A stretch of DNA of 64,000 nucleotides from Patellaria atrata CBS 101060 (lineage: Eukaryota), in NCBI GenBank assembly GCA_010093705.1, contig MU006098.1, positions 107,981 through 171,980 on the forward strand, given 5' to 3'. The notes beneath the pieces were generated by a model. It worked only from the letters and a program-made list of their open reading frames with translations, was not told the DNA's origin and did not search any database. Position 1 is the stretch's first letter; every line of letters starts with the position of its first letter. Shown here piece after piece: positions 1,138-25,437 of the stretch. Both the position numbers and the translations under genes were made by a program.

Positions 1138-2927
1138 ACGTGCTTCACCAGTCAGTGAGCCACCCCACCAAGATCAACCCACGTCTTCAACAAAATCAAC
1201 AATGCCACTAACACAGAACCTCCAGAAGCTCCGGCAAGAAGGTAGATTACTTATTGCTACTAAGTCGCTTCAAGAAAACTGAATTTCAAGTATCCGGAAG
1301 GCCGCTACATTGTACGATGTTCTAAAGTCTACACTCCGTCGTCGAGTATACGGGGTAACACCTCAGAGCGCGTCTAACTCACGAAAACGAAAGCTACAGC
1401 TATCTAAAGAGCAGGCACTTGTAGAATGGATCCTCGACCTCGACCGATGCGGATTTCCGCCCCATATCATTGACGTACGCCGAATGGCAGACCATTTACT
1501 CGCCGCGCGGGGCCAGACTCCCACACCCGTCGGTAAGAACTGGGTATGCCGCTTTATCAACAACCAGCCAGACCTACAGACAAGATGAAATAGGAAGTTC
1601 CATTCTCAACGCGCGAAATGCGAAGATCGAGACGTATTTCGCGAGTGGTACAAGCGCGTAAATGAGACGCGCCAGAAGTACGGCATCCTAGACGACGATA
1701 GCTACAACTTTGACGAGACTGGATTCATGATGGGTGTATCTGCGACATCGAAAGTCGTTACAAGCTCCGATACTATAGGCCGAGCAATTCTTATACAACC
1801 GGGCAATCGCGAATGGTCGACGGCGATTGAGTGCGTTAATGCGACTGGGTGGGCAATCCCGCCCTTCGTTATCCTTCCAGGAAAGCTCTACCAGTCAAGC
1901 TGGTATCGGGGACTTAGTGACTGGATGCTCGCTGTTAGCGATAATGGCTGGACAACAGTTAAACTAGGGTTTGAATGGATTAAGCACTTTAATAGCTATA
2001 CAAAGTCTTGTACGAAGGGGGTCTACCGTCTACTTATACTTGACGGTCATAGTAGCCACGCGACGCCTGAATTCGACCAATACTGTACGGAAAACAAGAT
2101 AATTACGCTCTGTATACCATCGCATACGTCACATCGTCTTCAGCCGCTTGACGTAAGCTGCTACTCCTCTCTAAAGGTCGCGTACGGTCACGAGGTTCAA
2201 AAGCTCGCCTATTATAGAGTCCCCTATATTGATAAAGAAGACTTCCTAGCAATATATACTAAGGTGCGGCTATCTATCTTTATAGATCAAAATATTAGAA
2301 GCGGATTTCTTTCTACGGGCCTAATGCCGTACGATCCTGAGCGCGTTATATCGTTACTTCCAATCACGAAGACTCCGACTCCACCAAGCACGGCTAATGG
2401 GGAAGCACCCCAATGGACTTCAGAAACGCCATATACTACTACCCAGCTAGAGCAGCAAGCAAAGCTCATACGGGACATCCTTCGGCGCCAGTCACAGAGC
2501 CCTACGAGCCAAGCAATCAATCAACTTGTTAAAGGATGCCAGATGGCGATGCGTTCCGCTACCATACTCGCAAAGGAGAATTCAGAGCTTCGTACGGAAA
2601 ATCAACGCCGAAAACAGAAGCAGCAGCACCGCCGAAGGTATATCGCACATGGAGGGGCTTTACAGGCTCAGCCGGCTCAGCACATAGCTGAGGAGTTGGA
2701 AAATATGGAGCAGGAGGCCGACCAGAGCTGGGCTGATCAGACGCGACAGCGAGCACCACCCACGTGCTCTAACTGTCATAACCAAGGCCACACAAGGCGT
2801 CAATGTACTAGTATCTTAAGTAGCTCTTAAGCATAATTTTTTTCGAATATATTTTGTTGTAGTAGAGTAATCGTGCGAAAACGCGGGTTGATCTTTGTGG
2901 GGTGGCTCACTGACTGGTGAAGCACGT
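1138..2927 (+). mobile_element. Fot1/Pogo-family (Tc1/mariner superfamily) DNA transposon, full length ~1.79 kb
   Basis: 43-bp terminal inverted repeats at 1138-1180 (ACGTGCTTCACCAGTCAGTGAGCCACCCCACCAAGATCAACCC) and 2885-2927, with one mismatch. TA target-site duplication at 1136-1137 and 2928-2929. Internal transposase frame. Confidence 0.97.
1202..2830 (+). pseudogene. Pogo/Fot1 transposase with two in-frame stops
   Basis: One frame from ATG 1202 with TGA at 1280-1282 and 1586-1588. It contains an HTH/CENP-B-like N-terminus (EQALVEWILDLDRCGFPP), catalytic Asp motifs NFDETG, LILDGH and LQPLDV, and a C-terminal zinc knuckle CSNCHNQGHTRRQC. Confidence 0.93.
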
Positions 2928-7800: not shown

Positions 7801-8819
7801 GTCTCCCTTATGGCTGCCATTTAGCCCAAGACCCCCGTGGCTGCAAAGAATCCCACGATGGCTCCTATGCCTTTTCTTCCATCCATATTTCCTTCACGTG
7901 TGTGATTCGCGATCTTCCCACAACAACTTCACTAACACTTCATTTCTTGCTCTGGCAGTTTTGCAGAGATATTCGTTCCTTACATTCCAACTGCATCTCG
8001 TTCTTTCGACTTCGTCGCCCGTGCTGGATTCGTCACACAAAACTTGCACCTTCTCTCCTTTAACCGCAAACACGCACCTCCTCGAGGATTGATTCCATAA
8101 TCGTCAAACTTGGACACTCTACCACCGCTCTCCTTCACAGTTCCACTTACCAAGGTCATCATTGTCGCCTGGACCTCAATCAATCGACTCCTAACTGCTC
8201 ACGGCCAGCGTCCATTCGTTCCTATTTCCATCCGTTGCTCTTTCGCGCACGAAGCGGACGCGAATATATTCTCAACACCCTCTCGACAAAGTCGATACAT
8301 TCTCTACAGCGTATATGGAGACTATCATAACTAGAAACACATCCATTGGCGTAATTTCAGGCTCTTGAAATACCAGGCCTGGTGGCTAACAAGGTACGTT
8401 AGTCGCAGCAGTTGTAGCGGTAGCCCAACGTCTCCACGGTTCCTGAACCATAGCATCAACACATTACGAGAAGACTGACGTATTAATAGACCCGGAATAA
8501 GTGTGTTCCGTTATACCTTTTTTTTTTTCTTTTTCTGTGGGAGGGGGGGTCCATTATTCTCCTGAATAGACCTTGCCGTGCGTTCTCTTCGATAGAACGC
8601 TAAGCGCCCTTTGAATCCTGGTCCCTAGACTCTGATCTTCAACGAAGAACTCATATCTTGCAAATATTCCTTACCCCTGTATACTATAATCACCGTATGT
8701 GCTTTTCATTCTAATCAATGAGTCTACCGCCACCATTCTCCTTGCCGATCAATGGCAAAGAATCAAGACAGCAGTTCACACTGCATAACGTTCGTCTCAC
8801 TAACCTCTATAAGGGAACA

Positions 8820-11800
8820 ATGAATCGAATGTTCACGAAAAAGAAGGCGAAGGTCGTCTCAGAAGATGACTCTTCGGGATTCTCCATCCCTTCAAAGAAG
8901 AACAAGAAGGGAAAGAAAGGTGAACCTGAAATGAAGCCTCAAGTAGATCTCTCGACAGCATTACCTTCTTCCGACGATTTTCGTACAAGTCTTCTGATGC
9001 CAAACCTTTCTGCTCGATTTAGTATGCTCAGAGAGCAAGACGACCCGAACTCGAAAATAGGTAAAGCAAGTGACGATAGTGTTCTGCAACCGAAACGACA
9101 ATCCCGGCTGGCTGATTTTGGATTTAAAGCTGGAGCACTGGCTGATATTGACGAGGTGTCTTCTATCAACAGCTCCATCAGACCTCCATTTGCATATGGT
9201 CGACAAGGGTCGGTGGATAGTTATGCGACAGATGATGAAAATGCTCAAAATGGAAGTGTAATGAGCAGGTCTAGACCTGGTGAAGGAAATGTTCTCTTTG
9301 GCGGGCGTCAAAAGATTTACACATTGAACGACCGAGGAATGGGACGTGCTCTCTATGAAGATGATGTGGCTTTATCCTCATTCCAGAGGCTACGACAAGA
9401 AGAAAGGGAAAGAGAGAGACAACGAGTGGAGGCAGAACTCAATGCTGAGCTTGAGGAACAGGATATTAGTCCTAAGGAATCCGCGAACTCTCCGTCTATA
9501 TCGGGGCTTAGCAAGAGAGAGACATCATCTTCCACAAATTCTGGGCCATCTTTCACGCGCACATCCACCGCAGCAACTTCAATCGCTTCCCAAGGGGCTG
9601 GCGCAATCCCGCCAAGTCCTCCCACCGTACCAAGTGCTCCATCACAATTCAACGCTGCTCCCAATTTGGACCGGTCAAAAACTCGACGGCTGTATGAATC
9701 GGGACTTGACCGTGATATTCATGATCAGCAATCCTCAGCGATGAATCGACTCAATTCGATACAGAAACAGCGAATCATGAATACAATCCCAACTCCTCCC
9801 TCTCTTTCCCAGGTGAGAAGTAGTCCCAACTTACAGGATCGTTTCAACCGAGCAGGCCATCCCATCCGAGCTGCCAGTCCTCCGCCTTCGGCACCCTTAA
9901 TGAATGTGGCAAATTTTGAGATTCGCAGAGATACCGAAAGGATTGGCCAAACATCAATATTACCTCACTCCCCTCCTATGAGTCCACTGGGAAGCGATAG
10001 TGAAGAGCACAATCCGCTCCCATCCGCCATCAGACCTAGTGATCGAGGTAAAGCTACGGCTATGGGCGCCTTCAACAAACCAAAGCAGTTCGATGAGCAA
10101 CAGTATTTGCAACGAACACTGCAGATGCAACGTGGTAGGGAAACACCACCCATAAGAAAAGAATCACCATCACCTTCCAGACCTGTACAGACGATGCGAG
10201 CAGAATTCGAAAGGAGACGAGCAGAATCCAATAACACTAGTCGATCAAATTCAGTCAGCCAACCTGAACCACCATCGGCATTGTCAGTCTTCCAGAAAGC
10301 TGCTAGTCAACTGAGAGCAAACGTATCTGAAAGCCCGGAGGCAAAATCTGCTTCCAATGTTCAGCAAACAAGCGTCGCTGATACCCCTAATCCAGAAATC
10401 AAGCTTGATTCGCAAAGAACTTTCTTTGCTTCACCGGATGATAGCGAGGTTGAAGATGAATCTTACATAAAGACGGAGACTAAGCCCGTGGTTCCTAAAC
10501 AAGAGCGACGCAGAGTAGTAGATCCACGAAATATCCCAACCACAGATCTTCCAGCCCCCCCTATATATGAACATCCTGCCCTAAGGTCAACAACATCCCT
10601 CGAACATTCTCCACGTGAGGAGAGAGCAAATAAAGATTTGCCAGAACTACCCCAGTCTTCTCTTTCCGATCGTGCGTTATCTGTTGGAACGCTAATTAAG
10701 TCTGATGCAACGGATGTAGATTCACCTACTTTAGGTCCGAATACTGGTGGTTTAAGTGGTCTCGTCCGTCAACATCTCCGCAACACGAGCACTCAATCTT
10801 CAGTTTACGGTGATGTCCCAGCCCCGCTAGCTCTCAGGACTCAGGATGTTGGTTTACGACCTACACAAGGCTCTGAATCAGAAACTCCTGCACATTCGAG
10901 CTATAGCTATTCGAATCCGTGGGATCTTGAGGATTATGATCGTTCTTATTACGGTGAAGTGGATAGCCGAAGCTCTGTAAGCCCTGTTGATAACTCTCAC
11001 GTCAAAGTTCAGACGAACGAAACAACCAAACCAACCCCCCGCGCACATCCATCGTCAGGAACGGATTATAACATGACTTCTCCATGGGAAGAAGAGTTAC
11101 AGAAGAAGCATTCTAGAGGAGCCAGCACTGAGACCACTCATGAACGAGAAGCTCTTGCTAATGAATTAGCTGAACGTAGAAGACAAATACAGGAGAGTGT
11201 GCGGAACAAGGTCGCAAATCAAAGCCGGTCTGCTAGTCCATCTCCTGGTCCATTCAAAGCGTTGGGAATACTCCGTAACAAAGTCAGCAGAGATTCCATG
11301 GCGGTAAATCAGGATGTCCCGGTAGCTTCTACAAAGGCCATGAAAATGCTTGGTATAAACGCTTCAACAATGAACACCAGCACGACATCACTAAGTGGAC
11401 AGGGTTCGCCAGATGATAGATCTAATAATACTAATGAAGGTCGCGAGGTACCAGAGGGGCCATCTCGACACCCTATGTCCCATTCGATCCAATCTAGGGT
11501 TCCTCAAGACGACTCTGCAATCCCCTCTGAGGTTGGGACACCTAAGAAACGTGGTCCCAGCGAAGAAGAACCCAGGGATATACGACCAAAGGGTAAATCC
11601 CCACCATCTTCAACAAAGAGTTCGATCCGAAACCGATCTAGCTCTGATATGTCGTCTGGCCGGTCCAGAAGCCGTGCTGTTCCTTATCGGGATGACGTCG
11701 AAAAGTGCATGGCTGGGGGAACTAACTCTGTTATGACAATTCCCTCACCCCAACCAGTAGCTCCACTTTCTCCAATCGTCCCACAAAGCTTCGTGCATTC

Positions 11801-12653
11801 GGCTCGGCCGATAGGAGAAGTAGAGGCTAAGCTCCATCACAAGTTGACTCCCGAAGAGCATACTGCCAGAGCGAGGACGAATAGCAAATCCGGGTATTTT
11901 GATCAAAGGACTCTTCTTCCTATTCAGACCTCACATAGCAATACATCGCTACCTCGTTTGTCCCCAGGTATGCTAAGTCCTAATCCTGGAGTCTCACCTA
12001 TACCGTCACCTCGACCATCTCCTGGACCTTTCAGTCCTTCACTGCGATCTGGAATAGGTGCAGGACCGTACTCTGCGAATTCTACTCCTCCAATTTCGGC
12101 TTCGACGACACCAGTCGCTCCTGCTTTCGATCGTACTGGTACAATGCCGCAAATGTCACGGATACCGACTCATCGTAAGAAATCGGTTAACAAACACGAT
12201 ATCTCCGAGCCTACATTGATCTCCAAGACCTCTACCGTCGACCTCGTTTCTCTTCCGCCTGGTGCGTCACTTGCTAACGGTGCGAATGGACCTCCTCCTC
12301 CATTACCGCCGCTCAACCCTCGCCGTCGTCGCTTCGGTTTTGGACGTAGTGAAAACGGTCAGGACAACACACAGACCGTGTCTCCGATACAAACCTCCAT
12401 CCCACAAGCTGTTCCTGAGACCAGTGCTTTTTCGGACGAAGATGATAAACCCCGTCAACGCCAAAGGCTTCGAAAGAGCTCGAGTGAGGGTCGTAGTCTC
12501 CACGCAAAAGCCATGCAGCCACCGGTTGGGCTACCGCGCAGCCCAGCAATGCAACCACCGGTCGGTTTACCACGCAGTCCAGCCATCTCTCATGGGTTTG
12601 CAGGACCAAATGGCTCCCCTCCCAAGCCCGCGCCAGAGGGTGGCATGTTCTAA
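8820..12653 (+). CDS. Large, mostly disordered Ser/Pro-rich fungal protein (~1277 aa)
   Basis: Uninterrupted ORF 8718-12653. The likely start is ATG 8820 (MNRMFTKKK), because a GTATGT(8695)..CTAAC..AG(8813) UTR intron precedes it. Conserved-looking blocks: ALPSSDDFRTSLLMPNLSARFSMLREQDDP and KSVNKHDISEPTLIS. Confidence 0.85.
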   Translation: MNRMFTKKKAKVVSEDDSSGFSIPSKKNKKGKKGEPEMKPQVDLSTALPSSDDFRTSLLMPNLSARFSMLREQDDPNSKIGKASDDSVLQPKRQSRLADFGFKAGALADIDEVSSINSSIRPPFAYGRQGSVDSYATDDENAQNGSVMSRSRPGEGNVLFGGRQKIYTLNDRGMGRALYEDDVALSSFQRLRQEERERERQRVEAELNAELEEQDISPKESANSPSISGLSKRETSSSTNSGPSFTRTSTAATSIASQGAGAIPPSPPTVPSAPSQFNAAPNLDRSKTRRLYESGLDRDIHDQQSSAMNRLNSIQKQRIMNTIPTPPSLSQVRSSPNLQDRFNRAGHPIRAASPPPSAPLMNVANFEIRRDTERIGQTSILPHSPPMSPLGSDSEEHNPLPSAIRPSDRGKATAMGAFNKPKQFDEQQYLQRTLQMQRGRETPPIRKESPSPSRPVQTMRAEFERRRAESNNTSRSNSVSQPEPPSALSVFQKAASQLRANVSESPEAKSASNVQQTSVADTPNPEIKLDSQRTFFASPDDSEVEDESYIKTETKPVVPKQERRRVVDPRNIPTTDLPAPPIYEHPALRSTTSLEHSPREERANKDLPELPQSSLSDRALSVGTLIKSDATDVDSPTLGPNTGGLSGLVRQHLRNTSTQSSVYGDVPAPLALRTQDVGLRPTQGSESETPAHSSYSYSNPWDLEDYDRSYYGEVDSRSSVSPVDNSHVKVQTNETTKPTPRAHPSSGTDYNMTSPWEEELQKKHSRGASTETTHEREALANELAERRRQIQESVRNKVANQSRSASPSPGPFKALGILRNKVSRDSMAVNQDVPVASTKAMKMLGINASTMNTSTTSLSGQGSPDDRSNNTNEGREVPEGPSRHPMSHSIQSRVPQDDSAIPSEVGTPKKRGPSEEEPRDIRPKGKSPPSSTKSSIRNRSSSDMSSGRSRSRAVPYRDDVEKCMAGGTNSVMTIPSPQPVAPLSPIVPQSFVHSARPIGEVEAKLHHKLTPEEHTARARTNSKSGYFDQRTLLPIQTSHSNTSLPRLSPGMLSPNPGVSPIPSPRPSPGPFSPSLRSGIGAGPYSANSTPPISASTTPVAPAFDRTGTMPQMSRIPTHRKKSVNKHDISEPTLISKTSTVDLVSLPPGASLANGANGPPPPLPPLNPRRRRFGFGRSENGQDNTQTVSPIQTSIPQAVPETSAFSDEDDKPRQRQRLRKSSSEGRSLHAKAMQPPVGLPRSPAMQPPVGLPRSPAISHGFAGPNGSPPKPAPEGGMF

Positions 12654-16337: not shown

Positions 16338-18206
16338 TTACAACATAATCAGCGCTATCAAACCAGCAACACCAACCCCAACGCTCATCTCCGCCCCCAT
16401 CCTCCATCCTGCCCGCCGCGCCTGTAAACTGCGATAACGGTCCAGTACCCGTCTTGGTCTTCATCGGAGCCGCTGTCCCATCAGCTGAGACCGCGCGTCC
16501 TGCTCCGGTAGGGTAACCTCCATGCGTCCCATTACCGCTTGGATGGGGATACGGAGCGTACGATCCATGTTCGCCATCATCGTCCCCATCGACATCTTCA
16601 GAGGGTGAATCATTCTCCTCAGCGTGAGTCTGGGTTGGCTGGTTGGGGTCCGCGGTGACGGTGTAGTACTGGGTAACGGTAGCGGTCTTGTCGACGCAAA
16701 CGGATTCCGTGGGTTCCAGGGGATTTTGTTCGGGGGCGTCGGTGCTCTCTTCTGGTTCCTCGTAGCTAGACCCTTCGTCGCCCTCCTCGTCATGATGGTC
16801 TGGGGTAGGCGTAGGAGTTACGGATATCAGGGTGCGGGTCGTTGTATCTGTTGTAGGCTCGCCGGTACTTGTGGGAGGGGTGCTCTGGAGGAGGGCTTGA
16901 TGTGCTATCAGTGGACTCTGATGCACTCTCGGTATGCTCATGGTTATATCCGCCAGTGGGCTTGGAGGTGTTGTCAGTTGGCTTGGAGGTGTTCCAAGTA
17001 GGTTTGGAAGAGGTATCCGTAGGCCGAGAGGAAGCCCCGGTCCCCTTGGAGGTGGTAGTGCTATCTGTACATGTAGTACTCTCCTCGGACTTTGTAGTTC
17101 CAGTGGGTTTGGGAGTGCTCTCTGACGCTTTATTCGTAGTTTGAGCGGACTTCGTCGTGTCCGCAGACTTGGTTGTCCCAGCAGACCTTGTAGTTTCAGC
17201 AGACTTTGTGCTTTGAGTAACCGGTGTAGTTGTCGGCTCAGTGCATGTAGTGTAATCATAATCATCCTCAGAGTCATCCTCATCGCCGGGATCGGGAGTC
17301 TCAGTATCATCCCCTTCATCGACACCACCATCCTCGAGGATCTCAATGCTCTCCCAAGTTCCAGATTGATCACCATACCGATACTCGTCTGCAGGCGCAT
17401 AGTTCGTAATCGCCACCTTTGATACACTCATCGTGAAAGGAGCTTGAGTATAGTTGGTCTTTCCGCCCGCCCACTTGACGGTACCTGCATTGGGAGAGTC
17501 ACCTCCAGCCCAGATCCCGAGGCGGATGTTCATGGGGGTTTGAGGGTAAGACTTCCCGCCGGCTGCGTCTTCCTTCTTGAGCGTTCGAACGGTAACGTCG
17601 TCGATGATCCAGTTGAGTTCGGTATCAGTCCATTCGATCGAATATGTATGAGAGTCCTTTGTGAAGTCTTGAACTGCAGAAAAGCCTCCTCGATCATGGG
17701 TTGTGGTGTTACCTCTGCTGAAGTAGTTCGTTTGGACTTCGTTGGGTTTATTACCGATGAACTCCTTTGTCATGTTAGTACAAGACGTCTACTTCCGAAG
17801 TGTAATTTGGTTAACTCACCCAATCGATTTCGTCAAGGTCGTCAGATTGTAAGACAAGGCTGCTTACGATACCAGTTCCTTTCGACGCCTTCATGGTTAT
17901 ATCTACTCTACCACCGAAGATATAGAACGGTGTTCGGATTGTGGGTGACTCTCCGGTCTTATGAATCGTAAACTCGGTTCCATCGGCGCCAAAGTCAACC
18001 TTGCCGTTGGTGACACTCCAGTCTCCAATTTTACCTGTTGTGAAATCATGGACCCTGGTGTCTTGGTCGAGAGCTTTGTTGTTGGGACAATCGGTTTTCT
18101 TCAAAGGATTGCAGTCAGACCATGTCTGAGTGGAAGCCAAAGGAGCGGCTATCGCAACGATGCCAACGGCGGTCGCGAAATAGGTACGCATATTGTACTG
18201 TTTCAA
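16338..18206 (-). CDS. GH16 Crh1/Crf1-like cell-wall transglycosylase with a frameshifted C-terminal tail
   Basis: Signal peptide, TWSDCNPL, and catalytic DEIDWE split by intron 17765-17819. VQTNYF and PQTPMNIRLGIWAGGD follow, then a Ser/Thr stalk. The main frame stops at 16790, while the stalk and GPI signal continue in two other frames to the stop at 16338. Confidence 0.85.
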
Positions 18207-18963
18207 TGTAAGATTCTGTAAAGAATGACTAGGGTTAGGAGGGATAGAGAAAGTGATGAAGGTTGCAAACGAAAGGAGGGGGTGGTAGAATAGAAATTCA
18301 GTAACTCGAAATTACATTACGCCATTTTATGAGATAGAATCGAAGTTACTCGACAAAGCCGTTGTCGCAGTCTGGGCAAATTTGCAATTGACCCTCTCAA
18401 AGGATTTCAAGCCAAGTCATCGATCGACTCGAAATGTGGCTTCTCCGTATTTGGATCAGACAAAGAGCATCTCTCCTAAATCTGAAATAGCCAGAGGATA
18501 AGAGTTGACAAAGATATCTACCTTGAGCCGAATCCAAATCCCCAGTGAGGTATCAATTATGAATTGACTTGACGAGATAAAGTGCAGTTGTTGATATCTG
18601 TGAATTGATAAATCGACCTACCCAGCAGTACCGACGCGTGAGCCTTTGTAAGGAATGGTTTTGGAAATATGACTAAAGGTGAACCGTAGGCCACTATCAT
18701 GCGAGATAAAGGTTGATGGGTGATGGTAGAAGATGAACTGTGCTATTTCTTAGTGACGACTTTTACTGGAGGTTGTCTTTAACAATATCCAACACCTGCT
18801 CTTGTCTCTCTGAGCTTAACTTCCCACCGGCACTGAATGTAACAAAGAAGCATCTACCTTTGAACCAAAAAGAAATATGTAACTTCTATACCTCTTACTT
18901 ACCTCATTGTTTCCCTTTACCTTTAATTAATTCCCTTCTACTACATCAAAAGAAATCCTAGCC

Positions 18964-19200
18964 AAAAAAAAAAAGAACTTAAATAGCAAAACTGAAAGCC
19001 ACGCTCGCCATTCAGAAACCCCCCGGACGGGTTTTTTCCGCTCGCCCTTAGAGGGTACCGCAACCGCACTGACCTGAACGTGACTGCGTATTCCACGCCG
19101 CTCGGGGTAGGGTTTCTCTAAGGTGGTTGGTGTGAGATTCGAACTGGGGACCGACCGATAGGAGGTTCGGTTCGTCGCCACTAGACCATATGATTAATTG
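18964..19200 (-). ncRNA. Candidate RNA polymerase III-transcribed structured ncRNA (not a tRNA)
   Basis: On the minus strand: A box TGGTCTAGTGG (19188-19178), B box GTTCGAATC (19144-19136), a GC-rich helical body and a T11 terminator (18974-18964). No cloverleaf can be formed. Confidence 0.55.
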
Positions 19201-19676
19201 TAATGGGAATTGGCGGAAAGAACTTATAAGGCGCAAGGCGAGGGGCAGGTACAATGGACAGGTTTTTACGTTGTTCAAGTTTTTTGTGAATAGGAGAAAC
19301 GTGACATGTCGTTGGAGTGGGAAATAGAAACCTTGGCATTCTCGAAAGGAGATTTCAAAAGGGGCCACTACTATAGAAGCTTAGAGAAACTTGGTACTAT
19401 GTCTTGCGATATACTTATGCCGATTTTTAAATTGGTATAATGACTGGTAATACGGCACTTTGAAATTCATTTATGAAAAAGCGTTGATACAAGGAAAAAG
19501 TTTTGATCACGTCAAAGTCAATATGAGTAATTAGACAAACATAGGATCATGCATTTCATGCAACGAGTAAATTACCAGTCCTGGTAAAGCGCAACTATAT
19601 GCGTGTCCAACGCCTTTTCCGAACGCCTTGAAACCGATGGACACTTCCCTAGTACGTCTAGAAATAATACAAGTGT

Positions 19677-22556
19677 CTAATGTAGGAGTTTATCTGCCGC
19701 ATTGGCTAGAATATCCGCGGCCTTCTCAAGTTGTGCTTGAGCTGCTTTCCAGTCCTGGGCATCAATGGCATCTCGAATAGCTGGGAAGTATGCCTCATCA
19801 TACCCTGACCACGTTTGTGGTGCAAAGAGGATATGTTTAAATTGTTCACGTCCGGGGACCTGTGATGAGTTAGCTGGGAAATTTCTGAAGTGGAGAATAT
19901 TATAGAGTGAATACATACGCCGTGCTTCTGATTGTCCGACCCGCTCTTCGGTAGGTCCAGAAGGTTGGACTCGAAGTCAGTCATCCTAGAATTGTGCATG
20001 ACTCTCTCCATCGCGAGTGCATTACTTTCTAGACCGGCGCGGCCATAGACTTGTCCGTACCAATAATCCTGCCAGTTTTCGAATTCCTTGGCTGTCTTTT
20101 TAAATTTGGTGGCTGCTTGCACCAATTTTGTCGTGTCGAATTTGGTACCATGCTCGTCTGGCTCCCAAGGCGCACCTTTGGAGTTTGCGTATTGCTCCAT
20201 ATCGTTGATATAGCCAGTCACAGCTGACGCGTAAGTCTTGAGATCGAAAGGGATGATAGGTTCCTGGGAGAGCTCCAGGATAAGTAGAATCCAGACCTCA
20301 GCGAGAGTACCATGATAGATAAAGCCTGGATCGCCGAATGTCTCCATCCACTCGAATGTCTCATAACAACTATGATATGGGTATCCTGGTCCATCGAATC
20401 CGAAATCTATACTTGACGTCCCTGCCATTGACTGAAATGCAACATAGTCGCTTCCAGCGCCTAAACCTTCAAGTCTACTATCAGATTCCTCCCAGATAGT
20501 TTTGAGAGTCTTATTCTTGAATGGATCTCCAACACGATCTAAGACCCGGAGAAGCGCTCGCTTGAAGATGGGAGATGCTGATGCTCGAAATTTGTTTCCG
20601 ACCACACCAACATCGACATTAAGATATGCTACACCATTTGCACGTAAATCCTCTATGTTTTCTTCTACGTGCTCCGTAGAACCAATGAGGTTGTATTCTT
20701 CGGCGTCCCAGGAAGCGAACTCGATAGTACGGAGCGGTCGCCAGCCTTGTTCGCGAAGTAAACCTAAAATAGCGACAACTTCTAACATCACCGCAGTTCC
20801 ACTGTACAGAGTTAGATCGTTTCCGCTCGTTCTCAAAGGAGACTACTCACCTGCCTGGATCTGCAGCACCAAAGCACCAGGAATCTCGATGGTTACCTAC
20901 GACGATTTTCTTTGCCTTTGTCTCCAAGCCCTCGATTACGCCCAGAACGTTATAGATTGGCTGTTTTTCTATCTCATCCTGCTCGTTTTTAAGTTGTACG
21001 ATTGGCGATGTTTGATCACCGGACCAGAACTCATCGATATCTGGTATCCCACCAACCCATTCAATGGGGACTTCCTCACCATGTCCTTTGAGGACGCTTA
21101 AAAGCCTCTGAGCATCTCGCCATGCGAGCGGAATGCTAGGGATATTGACTAGTCCAGGATTGTTCTCTTTGCTAAGCCTTTCAACATCTCCCCTACTTGC
21201 CCAACCAGGAGTGAGAACATCACCGATAACCCAGCTCATAAGACTGACTGCACCTCTCTGTACACTATCACTGGGTCTCCATCTACCTGTTGGCCAGACG
21301 TCCCCCTTTCCGAAGCCGTCTTGTTCAGGGTCGGAGTATATTATACACCCAATTGCACCTGCAAGCTCAGCAGCTTTAACCTTTAATGCTCTATCGCCTT
21401 GCGTGCCATAATAGCGGACCAAGACTACTGAGCCAGTAACATTGATGCCATGATCTTTCAATAGTTTGAAATCTTCCCTGGACCCATAATTGGCGTAGAT
21501 AAGAGGCCCCTTAACGTTGCCTGATTTTGAGTGACCATGAAAGACCATAGTCTGCTTTTGTTGGGGGGTAGGATTGATGTATACGGATTCTTCTTCAATT
21601 TTCGCTTCCCAAGCAAGCTCCGGTGGGTCGATGATCGCAACTCTTCGCCCTCCCTCTTTTGGATAGTTGAGATAAACCGCGTAACTAACCTATCATCAGT
21701 ATTCGTGTAGATATCGATAAACTCTCAACGCTCACTCTTCAAGTCCATATACATCCATATGTCCATCCTTAAACAAGCCCTCGATCCACCGAGCAAGATA
21801 TAGACTACCTTCCGAACCAGCAACATGATCAAATGAAGAGATGTGCTTAAGATTATCTCTTATTCTTCCAAGATCAATGTTACTTTGCGCAAACCCACGT
21901 ACCCACTCAGAATTGAATGGTTGACCTAAGCCACCATATTGAGAGGGCATAATCTCCACCACAAGCAATGCATATATGGCCGACACCAAAACGAACAGTC
22001 CGAATAATCGCGCTAGGACGGACCAACCAGGTCTATACTCGTCCGGGATATATGGTAACCTTGAGCTTATGATGTCAAAGGATATCGAAGGGAAAGGGAT
22101 TCGAAATGACCGAAAGGAGGGAAAATGTATGGATGAAAGTGTCATCGTAATACTCGAGATTCGTTTTGAAAATGTTCTACGTAAACGTGCTCTCCGTTGT
22201 GCTGCTGTCTCTGAATCCTCTGGATCTAATACTTCCAGTTCCTCCATGTCCCTCCGTAACGCTTCATCTTCGTCCTCATCCTCATCGTCACTTGGAGGTG
22301 TCACCTCGGGTAGATATAGGTCGCTGTCAACACTCGATCGCACCGATTGGACTGTTGGAGGGTGGTAACCATCTCTTCTTCTTGGATGGGTTCCGCTGGA
22401 GTCGCGTCCTAGGAGACCTTGCCGCTCAGCATCGTCGCTGACTTCTTCTGGACCGAGGCGGGATTGAGAGGATGGAGGGCGTGAAGACGTGGCCTCTTCA
22501 TATGTAGGTATTGGAAGACTCTCGTACTCTTTATAGACATGCTTCTCGTCCACCAT
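19677..22556 (-). CDS. Glutamate carboxypeptidase II / transferrin-receptor-like M28B membrane protein (Tre/Vps70 family), multi-exon
   Basis: N-terminal PTYEEA motif and one TM segment. PA domain (YANYGSREDF), M28 motifs GNHRDSW..GAADP, SWDAEEY and YHSCYE, and a TfR dimerisation region (FKHILFAPQTWSGY). Confidence 0.9.
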
Positions 22557-23068: not shown

Positions 23069-24484
23069 TCAAATAGCATAGGCTTTCATACTTGGTTCTT
23101 TCTTCCCTTTTATGACATACATCAAGATGTTTAGTGCGGCGTTAATGTTCGTTGACCCGTGGGTTGCGATCACGTCCACAGCAGTGAGACCAGGTGCTGC
23201 AGCCTGTTTACAAACTTTACTAAGTGAGAGTCTGCTCGTCTTCCCGGGACCATCGTGTGTTAGGGCATCCTCGATAAGGGCCCACGCAAGTGCATTGTAG
23301 AGGATTCCTCCGTGCAGTACAGTCTTGCCAGCCACTTGCCCAGGACACAAATCCTGAACATAGTTATTCGACACACCTATGCTTCGAGAGTCCTGTATGT
23401 AACCTGAAGCAGTTTTACCCCGCTGAGGTTGAACAACCTCATCTGTACCAGAATATACCGTTGTGGTAGGTACGAAAGCACTATCTCCCCCTTTCCCTCG
23501 CAGTGTTGCTATGAATTTGCTGTTGTACCTCTGTTGCATGACGCTAGGAGTGCATCCGAACAGGCCGAGTAGTGGACAGAGGATGTCTGCCGTCATCGAA
23601 CCATGAAAATCAGGACTCAGAGCAACAAAGTCGGAGACGGCATCCCGGGTGGACGGCCAATATTTAAGTCCCCATTGTGTATTAAGGGAGCCTTGAGACC
23701 AGGTTACGACAGCTACTTTCCTCGACCCGCAGATGCTGCTAATATAGTTGATAGCGTAAGCCACGTATTCAGCGGAGATCTGAACGTCGCCTAGGCTTGT
23801 TCCAGGGATATTGACCCACAGAGGGTCCGCAAAGCTAGAAGATGCAAGAAGAGGTGAGAGGTTGTTTTCGAAGCTTGAACCAGCAGAAACGGCGGTGCCT
23901 GGTACTAAGATTACTGGGACCTTGCCGTTGGCACCATATTTGAAAGACGACGGAATATATAAAGCCGCTCGAAGAGACGCTTCAGGGACTGAGTACGGAG
24001 CATCTGTAGACGACTTCTTCGGATAAATTGTGGCTGAAGGGTTCTTTTTATTATTATTCAAATAAGAATCGATCCCTCCAGGTCGTCGCTTCTGAAGCTC
24101 TGTGTCAGATGTCGTACCTTTGAGCTTCAGCTCGGCTGCATAGCTTATGATGTTGGGAGGTGTTGCCTGGGCGAGTGCTGCAGCCGCTAGTGATATAGCT
24201 TTTTCAATCGAGCTTGGATCAGTTCCTGCAACGACAGCATCAAGGACAGAAATGTACGCTGCTGATGCATCCTCGGCAGAAACACTGTTATTTGAAATGG
24301 CAGATGCAATAGTGGTAAGGTTCGAAGTAAGGAGAGATTCGTCTTCAATGGAAGATGATGGTAACGAGAGGACTTGAACGACTGGAGCTGGAAGCTCCTC
24401 TCTTCTAGCTATAGGACTTGCCCTAACTAGCGTTTCGAAAAGAAAGAAGATAAAGAATGTAATAAAGAAATGAGAGTAAGCCAT
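23069..24484 (-). CDS. Secreted lipase B (CalB-like) alpha/beta hydrolase
   Basis: Signal peptide, pro-region ending KRR, PVILVPGT, nucleophile elbow TWSQG, SPDFHG, catalytic Asp in TDEVVQPQ and His in LHGGIL. Intronless, 471 aa. Confidence 0.92.
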   Translation of the reverse strand: MAYSHFFITFFIFFLFETLVRASPIARREELPAPVVQVLSLPSSSIEDESLLTSNLTTIASAISNNSVSAEDASAAYISVLDAVVAGTDPSSIEKAISLAAAALAQATPPNIISYAAELKLKGTTSDTELQKRRPGGIDSYLNNNKKNPSATIYPKKSSTDAPYSVPEASLRAALYIPSSFKYGANGKVPVILVPGTAVSAGSSFENNLSPLLASSSFADPLWVNIPGTSLGDVQISAEYVAYAINYISSICGSRKVAVVTWSQGSLNTQWGLKYWPSTRDAVSDFVALSPDFHGSMTADILCPLLGLFGCTPSVMQQRYNSKFIATLRGKGGDSAFVPTTTVYSGTDEVVQPQRGKTASGYIQDSRSIGVSNNYVQDLCPGQVAGKTVLHGGILYNALAWALIEDALTHDGPGKTSRLSLSKVCKQAAAPGLTAVDVIATHGSTNINAALNILMYVIKGKKEPSMKAYAI

Positions 24485-25437
24485 GAGGGCAATGAGAGAC
24501 TGATACTATTCAGCTGAGAGATTTTCAGCTGGAATGAGCTACAATATGAAGCCTTTCCCGCACCCTAGCATCTTTTCGGATTACTTCTCGACATTGTGAT
24601 CTATTCAAGTGCTGGTAGGGATATGAAGCCACTATCACGGGTGTTTGGAGCGCTTGAGAATCGAGAGGACGTCGTTCTTCGTGTGAGATTGATCGTGCCT
24701 GCCAAGCAATTTTCTCTGGTCCACTCAGAGCTTTTTTTCCGCAATTCCCATCACGCCCACCTTTACACCAGATATGGCGCAAGACCGGGGAATTTGGGAA
24801 CATTCGGAGAAAGAGAAGCGGGCACAGAATAGGGTGAGTGTGCTCGAAAGCACCAATCCATATGAGATAAGTCTGATCTTAATATCTGGTATTATGGAAT
24901 ATCTGGGGTTGAAACGAAATGCCGGCCGCCTCCATACACATTCACTTATTGGCATATATTTTATCCAAATCTGAATGGGATGTAATAATAATATTATTAT
25001 CAGGATTAAAGCATATTTGAGACATTTCAGACTGTTTTCTAAAGAAAAAAAAAGATAAGTTCAAACCTAAGAAAGGGGCTTTCAAGTTTCAAGTCTTCAA
25101 GTTGATGCTGAAATGTACTAGCCTCCCGTTTTGGCTTGGCAACCAACCACACGATCATCTATCCAGCCTCCCGTTGTTATTCACTCTCAACTTTACATAT
25201 TCAAGTTCCAGCCACAATAATCTCATCTGAAATACAGATGGTAGGTATATTTCTCAAATTTGCCTGTTCCACTTCAATTATATTCCCAAAAACGCTACCA
25301 ACTAACTCGCTACCACCGTTAACAACCTAAATCACACCGTCATCTTCTCCTTCCAAACTGTTGATAGCAATTTACAGCTTTCTTTTCTACTCACCCAGCG
25401 AACTACATTTTCTATAATCCTCTTCAGGATTGAGATC

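What the first reader, a model, noticed from the sequence alone, without database searches (positions are those of the whole stretch)
18964..19230. Orphan Pol III-type transcription unit encoding a structured non-tRNA RNA
Seen (minus strand): a TATA-like TATAAG near 19225 and a consensus A box TGGTCTAGTGG (19188-19178). A B box GTTCGAATC (19144-19136) follows at tRNA-like spacing, then a ~150-nt GC-rich body, a T4 (18991-18988) and a T11 run (18974-18964). The T-arm and acceptor stems do not pair, so it is not a tRNA. The body folds: CCUUAGAG (19123-19116) pairs with CUCUAAGG (19053-19046), enclosing UACC/GGUA and a GCGU-ggaau-ACGC hairpin. The unpaired AAACCC after the first helix is complementary to a downstream GGGUUU, a possible pseudoknot or switch. 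Established: fungi use A/B-box promoters for non-tRNA RNAs (RNase P RNA, snR52, SRP RNA, some Neurospora milRNA precursors, tRNA-derived SINEs). I do not recognise the conserved motifs of RNase P/MRP, SRP, U5/U6 or C/D snoRNAs here. Inference: this may be an undescribed Pol III ncRNA.
Basis: partly seen in the sequence, partly recalled or inferred. Interest (0 to 1): 0.78.

Follow-up and report, generated by a model that had tools for sequence, protein, structure and literature searches.

The report
Lone tRNA-derived Pol III-like unit
A 235-base stretch between two fungal genes has intact tRNA-type promoter boxes and a long T-run terminator but is not a tRNA. It looks more like a tRNA-derived, SINE-like insertion than a proven new structured RNA gene.

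Summary
The A-box/B-box pair at tRNA spacing is beyond chance: it occurs once in the window, against 0.0033 per simulated 64-kb window. The element is not a tRNA. The acceptor stem pairs at 1 of 7 positions and the T stem at 2 of 5, and ARAGORN and Rfam find nothing.

The "structured RNA" claim is not supported. The folds are no more stable than shuffles (z +0.54 and +0.32). The 8-bp helix is matched in 57 of 500 shuffles, and the structure containing it is 4.7 kcal/mol above the minimum-energy fold.

One new feature: a perfect 10-nt direct repeat, TAAGTTCTTT, brackets a 235-nt GC-rich insert. A repeat that long occurs in 13 of 2000 shuffles and at 7 of 1676 same-geometry places.

I found no second copy, no homologue in 677 kb of related fungal DNA, and no RNA data. 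The lineage has no close sequenced relative, so conservation is untestable here.

Best reading, at about 0.4: a transcription-competent, tRNA-derived SINE-like insertion. A lineage-specific leader-type Pol III ncRNA gene is not excluded, at about 0.2-0.25. Interest is modest.

The parts
19223..19228 (-). TATA-like TATAAG. Its first T lies 40 nt upstream of the A box, a plausible TFIIIB site. Its last four bases lie inside the 5' direct repeat.
   Evidence: sequence. The geometry is inferred from established type-2 promoter knowledge (recalled).
19217..19226 (-). 5' copy of the 10-nt direct repeat TAAGTTCTTT, a candidate target-site duplication.
   Evidence: family D5, 100% identity. A repeat of 10 nt or more occurs in 13 of 2000 shuffles and at 7 of 1676 same-geometry places.
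19125..19195 (-). tRNA-like head in positions 1-72 of tRNA numbering. The D stem (3 of 4 pairs) and anticodon stem (5 of 5, 8-nt loop ACCTCCTA) are kept. The acceptor stem (1 of 7) and T stem (2 of 5) are not.
   Evidence: ARAGORN finds nothing down to the ps80 threshold. There is no Rfam tRNA hit at E<=10.
19178..19188 (-). A box TGGTCTAGTGG
   Evidence: It is identical to the A box of the real tRNA-Val in L015.
19136..19144 (-). B box core GTTCGAATC (tRNA positions G53-C61)
18992..19124 (-). GC-rich body unrelated to tRNA. It holds the 8-bp inverted repeat, GGCGAG twice and CGG-N11-CCG. No T4 run lies inside it.
18988..18991 (-). T4, a possible weak or leaky Pol III stop
   Evidence: Its weakness in fungi is recalled, not tested.
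18972..18981 (-). 3' copy of the direct repeat TAAGTTCTTT. It overlaps the first three T of the T11 run.
18964..18974 (-). T11, a strong Pol III terminator-like run
   Evidence: It is one of 5 minus-strand T runs of 9 or more in 64 kb.

Best explanation
This is a tRNA-derived, SINE-like insertion that still has everything a type-2 RNA polymerase III promoter needs.

A 235-nt GC-rich segment (19216-18982, minus strand) sits in AT-richer intergenic DNA. It is bracketed by a perfect 10-nt direct repeat, as after insertion with target-site duplication. Its 5' part keeps the core of a tRNA gene (positions about 8-62): the A box, D arm, anticodon arm and B box. It lacks the acceptor and T stems, as SINE heads and leader-type promoters do.

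Inferred mechanism, none of it shown here:
- TFIIIC binds the B and A boxes.
- TFIIIB sits on the TATA-like or AT-rich DNA about 40 nt upstream of the A box.
- Pol III starts near 19200.
- It reads through the head and the roughly 130-nt body.
- It stops partly at the T4 and finally in the T11.
- The product is an RNA of about 210-235 nt with an oligo-U end.

If the repeat is a true duplication, then the TATA-like element and the T run were neighbours in the empty site. They serve as promoter and terminator context only by accident of where the element landed. Nothing here indicates that the RNA itself has a conserved or structured function.
For: - The A/B composite at exact tRNA spacing is far beyond chance, and its only other instance in about 740 kb of fungal DNA is a real tRNA.
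- The acceptor and T stems pair at the random level (3 of 12) while both boxes are perfect and the D and anticodon stems hold. This does not fit even, neutral decay of a whole tRNA gene. It fits a derived head.
- The 10-nt perfect direct repeat flanks the unit. A repeat of 10 nt or more occurs in 13 of 2000 shuffles and at 7 of 1676 same-geometry places.
- There is no extended similarity of the flanks to the unit, so it is not a tandem duplication: 144 and 256 of 300 shuffles score at least as well.
- The insert is 54.5% GC and the rest of the intergenic DNA is 39.3% (profile).
- There is no fold signal, no Rfam family and no similarity in 80 related loci.
- Literature (PMC5063351; abstract and sections 14, 16 and 20 read): putative tRNA-related SINE-like sequences of Aspergillus fumigatus are 140-493 bp with 4-14-bp TSDs and a tRNA-unrelated region. 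Their heads do not fold as cloverleaves. They occur in 1-5 copies, three of them as single copies.
Against: - No second copy lies in the 64-kb window; the best other blastn hit has E 0.36 and sits on the T run.
- In both DNA runs a single contig bridges the unit and both flanks, and no other contig was laid at 95% or more. Both runs come from one sample and are probably the window's own source. This is weak evidence, because contigs show presence rather than absence.
- A perfect 10/10 repeat suggests a recent insertion, yet no near-identical source copy was seen.
- The 3' end (...GCTATT) has no A-rich or simple-repeat tail.
- The 5' repeat lies 28 nt before the A box, further than in typical SINEs (typical value recalled).
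- No reverse-transcriptase ORF was found among the 37 ORF translations scanned in the window.
- The GC-rich stretch runs about 40 nt beyond the 5' repeat.
- The repeat has about a 0.5% chance expectation and was one of several features examined.
Confidence: 0.4

Rival explanations
1. A single-copy, lineage-specific Pol III ncRNA gene with a tRNA-like leader promoter, built like RPR1 or SNR52. The head serves only as the promoter. The roughly 130-150-nt body is the functional RNA, released by processing.
For: - The A and B boxes are perfect while the tRNA stems are lost.
- A TATA-like element lies 40 nt upstream of the A box and a strong T11 lies downstream, with no internal T4 run.
- Only 4 other minus-strand T runs of 9 or more occur in 64 kb, so a run within 250 nt has about a 1.6% chance.
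- The unit appears to be single copy.
- The body is GC-rich.
- A precedent exists. The first 84 nt of RPR1 hold a tRNA-like promoter. The sequences upstream of mature snR52, RPR1 and Zod1 hold regular A and B elements that do not fold like a tRNA (PMC2566860, passages read).
Against: - The folds are not more stable than shuffles (z +0.54 and +0.32).
- No C/D or H/ACA box pattern is visible in the sequence (read).
- There is no Rfam hit.
- No similarity was found in 677 kb of related loci, though synteny is lost there, so this is weak.
- The flanking 10-nt direct repeat would have to be coincidence.
Confidence: 0.25
2. A relic of a tRNA gene that arose in place, comparable to yeast ZOD1 or an extra-TFIIIC site. 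The 3' third was replaced or lost, but the boxes are kept because TFIIIC or Pol III binding matters for chromatin or for the neighbouring genes. The long read-through RNA would be a by-product.
For: - The tRNA core from position 8 to about 62 is intact, and everything after position 62 is unrelated.
- One relative (L015) has a real tRNA-Val(CAC) about 304 nt after the stop of a 55%-identical gene of the same family. It is on the same strand and has the same A box and spacing. The window unit starts 485 nt after its gene's stop.
Against: - Only 1 of 60 loci with at least 1200 nt downstream has such a tRNA, which is compatible with coincidence.
- Outside the boxes there is little identity between the head and that tRNA-Val.
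- This reading does not explain the flanking direct repeat or the GC-rich body.
Confidence: 0.2
3. Not a Pol III unit in vivo. The region is promoter or enhancer DNA of the downstream GH16 Crh-like gene, or neutral intergenic DNA, and the motifs have no transcriptional role.
For: - The T11 end of the unit lies 773 nt upstream of that gene's ATG at 18191.
- GGCGAG occurs 3 times in 351 nt against 0.22 expected, and there is a CGG-N11-CCG site.
- Across very many scanned windows some chance A/B composites must occur.
Against: - The composite expectation is 0.0033 per window.
- The D and anticodon stems pair as well.
- The TATA-like element and the T11 add to the pattern.
Confidence: 0.1

Closest known systems
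AfuSINE2, the putative tRNA-related SINE-like sequences of Aspergillus fumigatus (PMC5063351)
   Same: - It is in the Pezizomycotina.
- The length falls in the 140-493 bp range.
- The head carries Pol III boxes and does not fold as a cloverleaf.
- There is an extended tRNA-unrelated region.
- The flanking direct repeats fall in the 4-14 bp range.
- Copy number is very low, or single.
- The location is gene-rich.
   Different: - The A and B boxes here are perfect, whereas those of AfuSINE2 are described as degenerate.
- No sequence comparison with them was made.
- Transcription is untested here.
- No ACT-repeat or LINE-like 3' end is seen.
Leader-type Pol III genes of yeast: RPR1, SNR52 and ZOD1
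   Same: The A and B boxes lie in a 5' segment that does not fold as a tRNA. A non-tRNA RNA follows, and the unit ends in a T run (PMC2566860 passages; other details recalled).
   Different: - Those RNAs belong to known families (RNase P RNA, a C/D snoRNA) and are conserved.
- Here the body matches no Rfam family, shows no box motifs, and has no demonstrated conservation or transcript.
[quoted passage not shown]
   Same: An upstream tRNA-type promoter drives a downstream promoter-less RNA of unknown function, such as RUF70 (PMC2566860 abstract and passages).
   Different: - There the leader is a real, processed tRNA, and the units are multi-copy (13 and 48 genes).
- Here the leader cannot form a tRNA, and only one copy is seen.
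Classical fungal tRNA-derived SINEs such as Mg-SINE and Foxy (recalled; Mg-SINE's roughly 100 copies are cited in PMC5063351 section 20)
   Same: A tRNA-related head with A and B boxes, an unrelated body, and flanking duplications.
   Different: Those have tens to hundreds of copies and characteristic 3' tails. Neither is seen here.

Membership tests
tRNA gene (Rfam RF00005) | Cloverleaf with paired acceptor and T stems | tested here: not met
   The acceptor stem pairs at 1 of 7 positions and the T stem at 2 of 5.
tRNA gene (Rfam RF00005) | Recognised by tRNA finders or the covariance model | tested here: not met
   ARAGORN finds 0 in the window and nothing down to ps80. Only junk calls on both strands appear at ps70 and below. 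There is no Rfam match at E<=10 on 801 nt or on 111 nt. tRNAscan-SE was not available.
Type-2 Pol III transcription unit | A box and B box at tRNA-like spacing | tested here: met
   The spacing is 44 nt start to start, identical to a real tRNA-Val. The composite is expected 0.0033 times per window.
Type-2 Pol III transcription unit | Downstream T-run terminator with no earlier T run | tested here: met
   The T4 is at 18991-18988 and the T11 at 18974-18964. No TTTT lies between the A box and 18991.
Type-2 Pol III transcription unit | Pol III-dependent transcript; TFIIIC/TFIIIB occupancy | not testable with these tools
   No RNA run was listed. There are no ChIP data.
tRNA-derived SINE | tRNA-related head with an internal promoter plus an unrelated body | tested here: met
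tRNA-derived SINE | Flanking target-site duplication | tested here: met
   The 10-nt perfect repeat lies at 19226-19217 and 18981-18972. Its chance rate is 13 of 2000 shuffles and 7 of 1676 places.
tRNA-derived SINE | Several dispersed copies in the genome | tested here: inconclusive
   No other copy lies in the 64 kb. One bridging contig per run was laid and no other at 95% or more. No whole genome is held, so diverged copies cannot be excluded.
tRNA-derived SINE | A-rich or simple-repeat 3' tail, or a 3' end shared with a partner LINE | tested here: not met
   The insert ends ...CAGTTTTGCTATT with no tail. No RT or LINE ORF was found in the window. Relation to a LINE elsewhere in the genome is not testable.
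Leader-type Pol III ncRNA gene (RPR1/SNR52 kind) | The body is a conserved, functional RNA processed from the leader | tested here: inconclusive
   There is no Rfam family, no fold signal and no similarity in 80 loci. Those loci are 48-69% identical at protein level and are not syntenic. The nearest named relatives share only 71% ERG24 identity.

The most novel reading that the evidence does not exclude
The unit is a genuine single-copy gene for a previously undescribed Pol III RNA of about 130-230 nt in an isolated Pezizomycotina lineage. It would be expressed from a degenerate tRNA-like leader promoter as RPR1 and SNR52 are. The alternative AAACCC/GGGUUU and CCUUAGAG/CUCUAAGG pairings would form a switch.
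Probability: 0.2. Interest if true: 0.6.

Novelty: new member of a known kind. Interest (0 to 1): 0.3.

Why it matters
Few Pol III transcripts beyond tRNA, 5S, U6, RNase P and SRP RNA are known in filamentous fungi.

If this is a transcribed single-copy unit, it would add either a new small RNA or a clean case of a tRNA-derived element landing between a TATA-like element and a T run and so becoming a complete transcription unit. If it is only a relic, it is ordinary. tRNA-derived low-copy elements with short flanking repeats are already described in Aspergillus (PMC5063351).

It has one practical use. The head is a compact candidate Pol III promoter, and it may also mark a TFIIIC site between two genes.

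Tried and rejected
- **Own genome:** not held.
- **Sequencing runs:** no RNA holder was listed. The 2 runs come from one sample and one study. Laid on 17000-21000, they gave one identical contig each (32,024 and 7,936 letters). They are DNA, probably the window's own source, and carry no expression information.
- **Junction pattern (B box, N6-18, first 14 nt of the body):** 0 matches in metagenome contigs, genome contigs and viral contigs.
- **Synteny route:**
  - 80 metagenomic loci were fetched with the neighbouring M28/TFR-like gene.
  - blastn and nhmmer of the unit and of the whole 1.5-kb spacer gave nothing better than E 0.5.
  - No GH16 Crh-like gene lies in any of the 80 loci, so the neighbourhood is not kept.
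  - The weak A-box-region hits in L007-L009 are not tRNA-like.
- **Rfam below threshold:** only MIR5298 (22 bits, E 0.84, downstream AT-rich DNA) and bacterial suhB/mmgR (11.4 bits, E 5.4). Both were rejected as chance.
- **Tandem-duplication origin of the flanking repeat:** rejected.
- **Protein-coding reading:** the stop-to-stop ORFs across the unit are 41-110 aa and look like noise on reading. They were not searched.
- **SRP-like motif:** a CAGGUCAG plus GGAA-loop resemblance was recalled but has no Rfam support.
- **Format errors:** one search was redone. Searches failed, and the count was made instead.
- **Not done:** a covariance-model search of the loci and any covariation test, because no homologue exists to build them on.
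- **Literature:** searches gave no paper describing this RNA. Only listings were seen, except for PMC5063351 and PMC2566860.

Full report
**Observation.**
- TATAAG at 19228-19223
- A box TGGTCTAGTGG at 19188-19178
- B box GTTCGAATC at 19144-19136
- T4 at 18991-18988
- T11 at 18974-18964
- an 8-bp inverted repeat, CCTTAGAG at 19123-19116 and CTCTAAGG at 19053-19046

I scanned with a degenerate A-box/B-box composite, TRGYNNARYGG-N28-50-GTTCRANYC.
- It occurs once in the 64-kb window, at this site.
- It occurs once in 676,930 bases of related fungal loci, where it is a real tRNA-Val.
- It occurs at 0.0033 per simulated window, that is 1 hit in 300.
- The A-to-B spacing equals that of the real tRNA.

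So the promoter-like module is not a chance match within this window.

**Not a tRNA and not a known family.** In tRNA numbering the stems pair as follows:
- acceptor stem: 1 of 7
- T stem: 2 of 5
- D stem: 3 of 4
- anticodon stem: 5 of 5, around an 8-nt loop

ARAGORN finds no tRNA in the window and none in the region down to its ps80 threshold. At ps70 and below it only gives overlapping junk calls on both strands. Rfam finds the following:
- Nothing at gathering scores in the 64 kb.
- No tRNA or other credible match at E<=10 on 801, 111 or 181 bases.
- Two sub-threshold hits, MIR5298 and bacterial suhB, which are chance.

**Structure.** The minimum-energy folds are no more stable than dinucleotide shuffles. 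The 229-nt fold has z +0.54, and 144 of 200 shuffles fold at least as well. The 146-nt fold has z +0.32, with 112 of 200.

However, a Watson-Crick stem of 8 bp or more occurs in 57 of 500 shuffles of the body. The best fold containing the helix is -45.3 kcal/mol, against -50.0 for the MFE. The MFE uses the competing AGAGAAACCC/GGGGGGUUUCU pairing instead. The word "structured" therefore has no support beyond chance. It is also not refuted, because covariation could not be tested.

**Context and lineage.** The unit lies in a 1.5-kb spacer between two minus-strand genes.
- Upstream is an M28 peptidase / PA / transferrin-receptor-like gene. Its stop codon is at 19682-19680.
- Downstream is a GH16 Crh-like gene with its ATG at 18191.

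The rest of the window is ordinary fungal gene space: Vps35, ERG24, MFS transporters, a pogo-type DDE transposase, and no reverse transcriptase among the ORFs scanned.

The best named relatives of the ERG24 fragment are only 71% identical. They are Coniosporium apollinis and Aplosporella prunicola, followed by lichen-forming fungi and Xylona. The organism is therefore a Pezizomycotina without a close sequenced relative in the collections I could reach.

**A new feature: flanking direct repeats.** A perfect 10-nt direct repeat, TAAGTTCTTT, lies at 19226-19217 and 18981-18972. It brackets 235 nt (19216-18982).
- A repeat of 10 nt or more between flanks of this size occurs in 13 of 2000 composition-matched shuffles.
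- It occurs at 7 of 1676 places with the same geometry elsewhere in the window.
- The flanks show no extended similarity to the unit, so this is not a tandem duplication.
- The bracketed segment is 54.5% GC against 39.3% for the rest of the spacer. The GC-rich stretch runs about 40 nt past the 5' repeat.

The 5' repeat overlaps the last four bases of the TATAAG. The 3' repeat overlaps the first three T of the T11. If the repeat is a target-site duplication, the TATA-like element and the T run were adjacent before the insertion.

**Copy number.** No whole genome is held. Within the window the unit has no second copy; the best other hit has E 0.36 and sits on the T run.

Two DNA runs hold the region. 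Both come from one sample and are probably the window's own source. In each run one contig bridges the unit and both flanks without a difference, and no other contig was laid at 95% or more. This argues weakly against near-identical extra copies. It says nothing about diverged ones.

**Conservation.** A junction pattern found nothing in the metagenome, prokaryotic-genome or viral collections.

Using the upstream gene I fetched 80 metagenomic fungal loci at 48-69% protein identity. Of these, 60 have at least 1200 nt downstream of the match.
- Neither the unit nor the whole spacer has any similarity there; the best hit has E 0.5 and nhmmer finds none.
- None of the 80 loci holds the GH16 neighbour.

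Synteny is therefore lost, and this negative result is weak.

One locus, L015, carries a real tRNA-Val(CAC) about 304 nt after the stop of its 55%-identical gene. It is on the same strand and has the same A box and spacing. At 1 of 60 loci this may be coincidence.

**Expression.** This could not be tested. The attempts are listed under Tried and rejected.

**Interpretation.** The stems that define a tRNA pair at the random level (3 of 12). Both promoter boxes are perfect, and the two internal stems are intact. Even, neutral decay of a whole tRNA gene does not produce that pattern. There are two alternatives:
- The element descends from a source that already lacked the stems, that is a SINE-like head or a leader-type promoter.
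- The boxes are under selection.

With the flanking repeat, the compositional contrast, the lack of any fold signal and the lack of a known family, I commit to a tRNA-derived, SINE-like insertion that is still a complete type-2 Pol III unit, at confidence about 0.4.

The mechanism follows established knowledge of type-2 promoters and is not shown here:
- TFIIIC binds the B and A boxes.
- TFIIIB sits on the TATA-like DNA 40 nt upstream of the A box.
- Transcription starts near 19200.
- It terminates leakily at the T4 and fully in the T11.
- The product is an RNA of 210-235 nt with an oligo-U end.

Several observations count against this reading:
- no second copy
- no 3' tail
- 28 nt between the 5' repeat and the A box
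- a roughly 0.5% chance that the repeat is accidental

**Rivals.**
- A single-copy leader-type ncRNA gene, about 0.25. It explains the perfect boxes, the TATA-like element, the T11 and the single copy. It needs the repeat to be chance and has no structural or conservation support.
- An in-place tRNA relic kept as a TFIIIC/Pol III site, ZOD1-like, about 0.2.
- No Pol III role at all, about 0.1. The GGCGAG motif occurs 3 times in 351 nt against 0.22 expected, and a CGG-N11-CCG site lies here. Both could be transcription-factor sites for the downstream gene.

**Comparison with the known.** The nearest published kind is the set of putative tRNA-related SINE-like sequences of Aspergillus fumigatus (PMC5063351; abstract and sections 14, 16 and 20 read).
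- They are 140-493 bp long.
- Their TSDs are 4-14 bp.
- Their heads do not fold as cloverleaves.
- They occur in 1-5 copies.

In function the unit would work like the leader promoters of RPR1, SNR52 and ZOD1, or like tRNA-led dicistronic units such as tRNA-Trp-RUF70 (PMC2566860; abstract and passages read).

I do not file it as a SINE. The multi-copy criterion is unresolved and the 3'-tail criterion is not met.

**Verdict.** The "structured ncRNA" claim is unsupported. The element is most likely a new member of a known kind, a tRNA-derived Pol III unit. Interest is 0.3. The bolder reading, a new Pol III RNA gene, keeps a probability of about 0.2.

Noticed in passing
L015 7436-7507 (+): A real tRNA-Val(CAC) lies about 304 nt after the stop of a 55%-identical gene of the same M28/TFR-like family. 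It is on the same strand, with the same A box TGGTCTAGTGG and the same 44-nt A-to-B spacing as the window unit. It is seen in 1 of 60 loci with enough downstream DNA. This may be coincidence, or a hint of an old tRNA gene at this place.
   Followed up: partly
window 19046-19041, 19009-19004, 19242-19237; 19040-19024: GGCGAG occurs twice in the body and once inverted upstream, so 3 times in 351 nt against 0.22 expected. A CGG-N11-CCG site also lies here; there are 10 in the 64 kb. These may be transcription-factor sites about 800 nt upstream of the GH16 gene.
   Followed up: partly
window 8715-12650 (+): An uninterrupted 1312-aa ORF with no Pfam family at E<=1e-4.
   Followed up: no
window 23072-24505 (-): A 478-aa ORF with no Pfam family.
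   Followed up: no
window 1589-2827 (+): A pogo/Tc5-type DDE_1 transposase ORF (E 1e-28). A DNA transposon or its remnant lies at the window's start.
   Followed up: no
L015 7508-7600 (+): The tRNA-Val in L015 has no T run directly after its 3' end. The first TTTT is about 45 nt downstream, so extended Pol III read-through may be common in these fungi.
   Followed up: no
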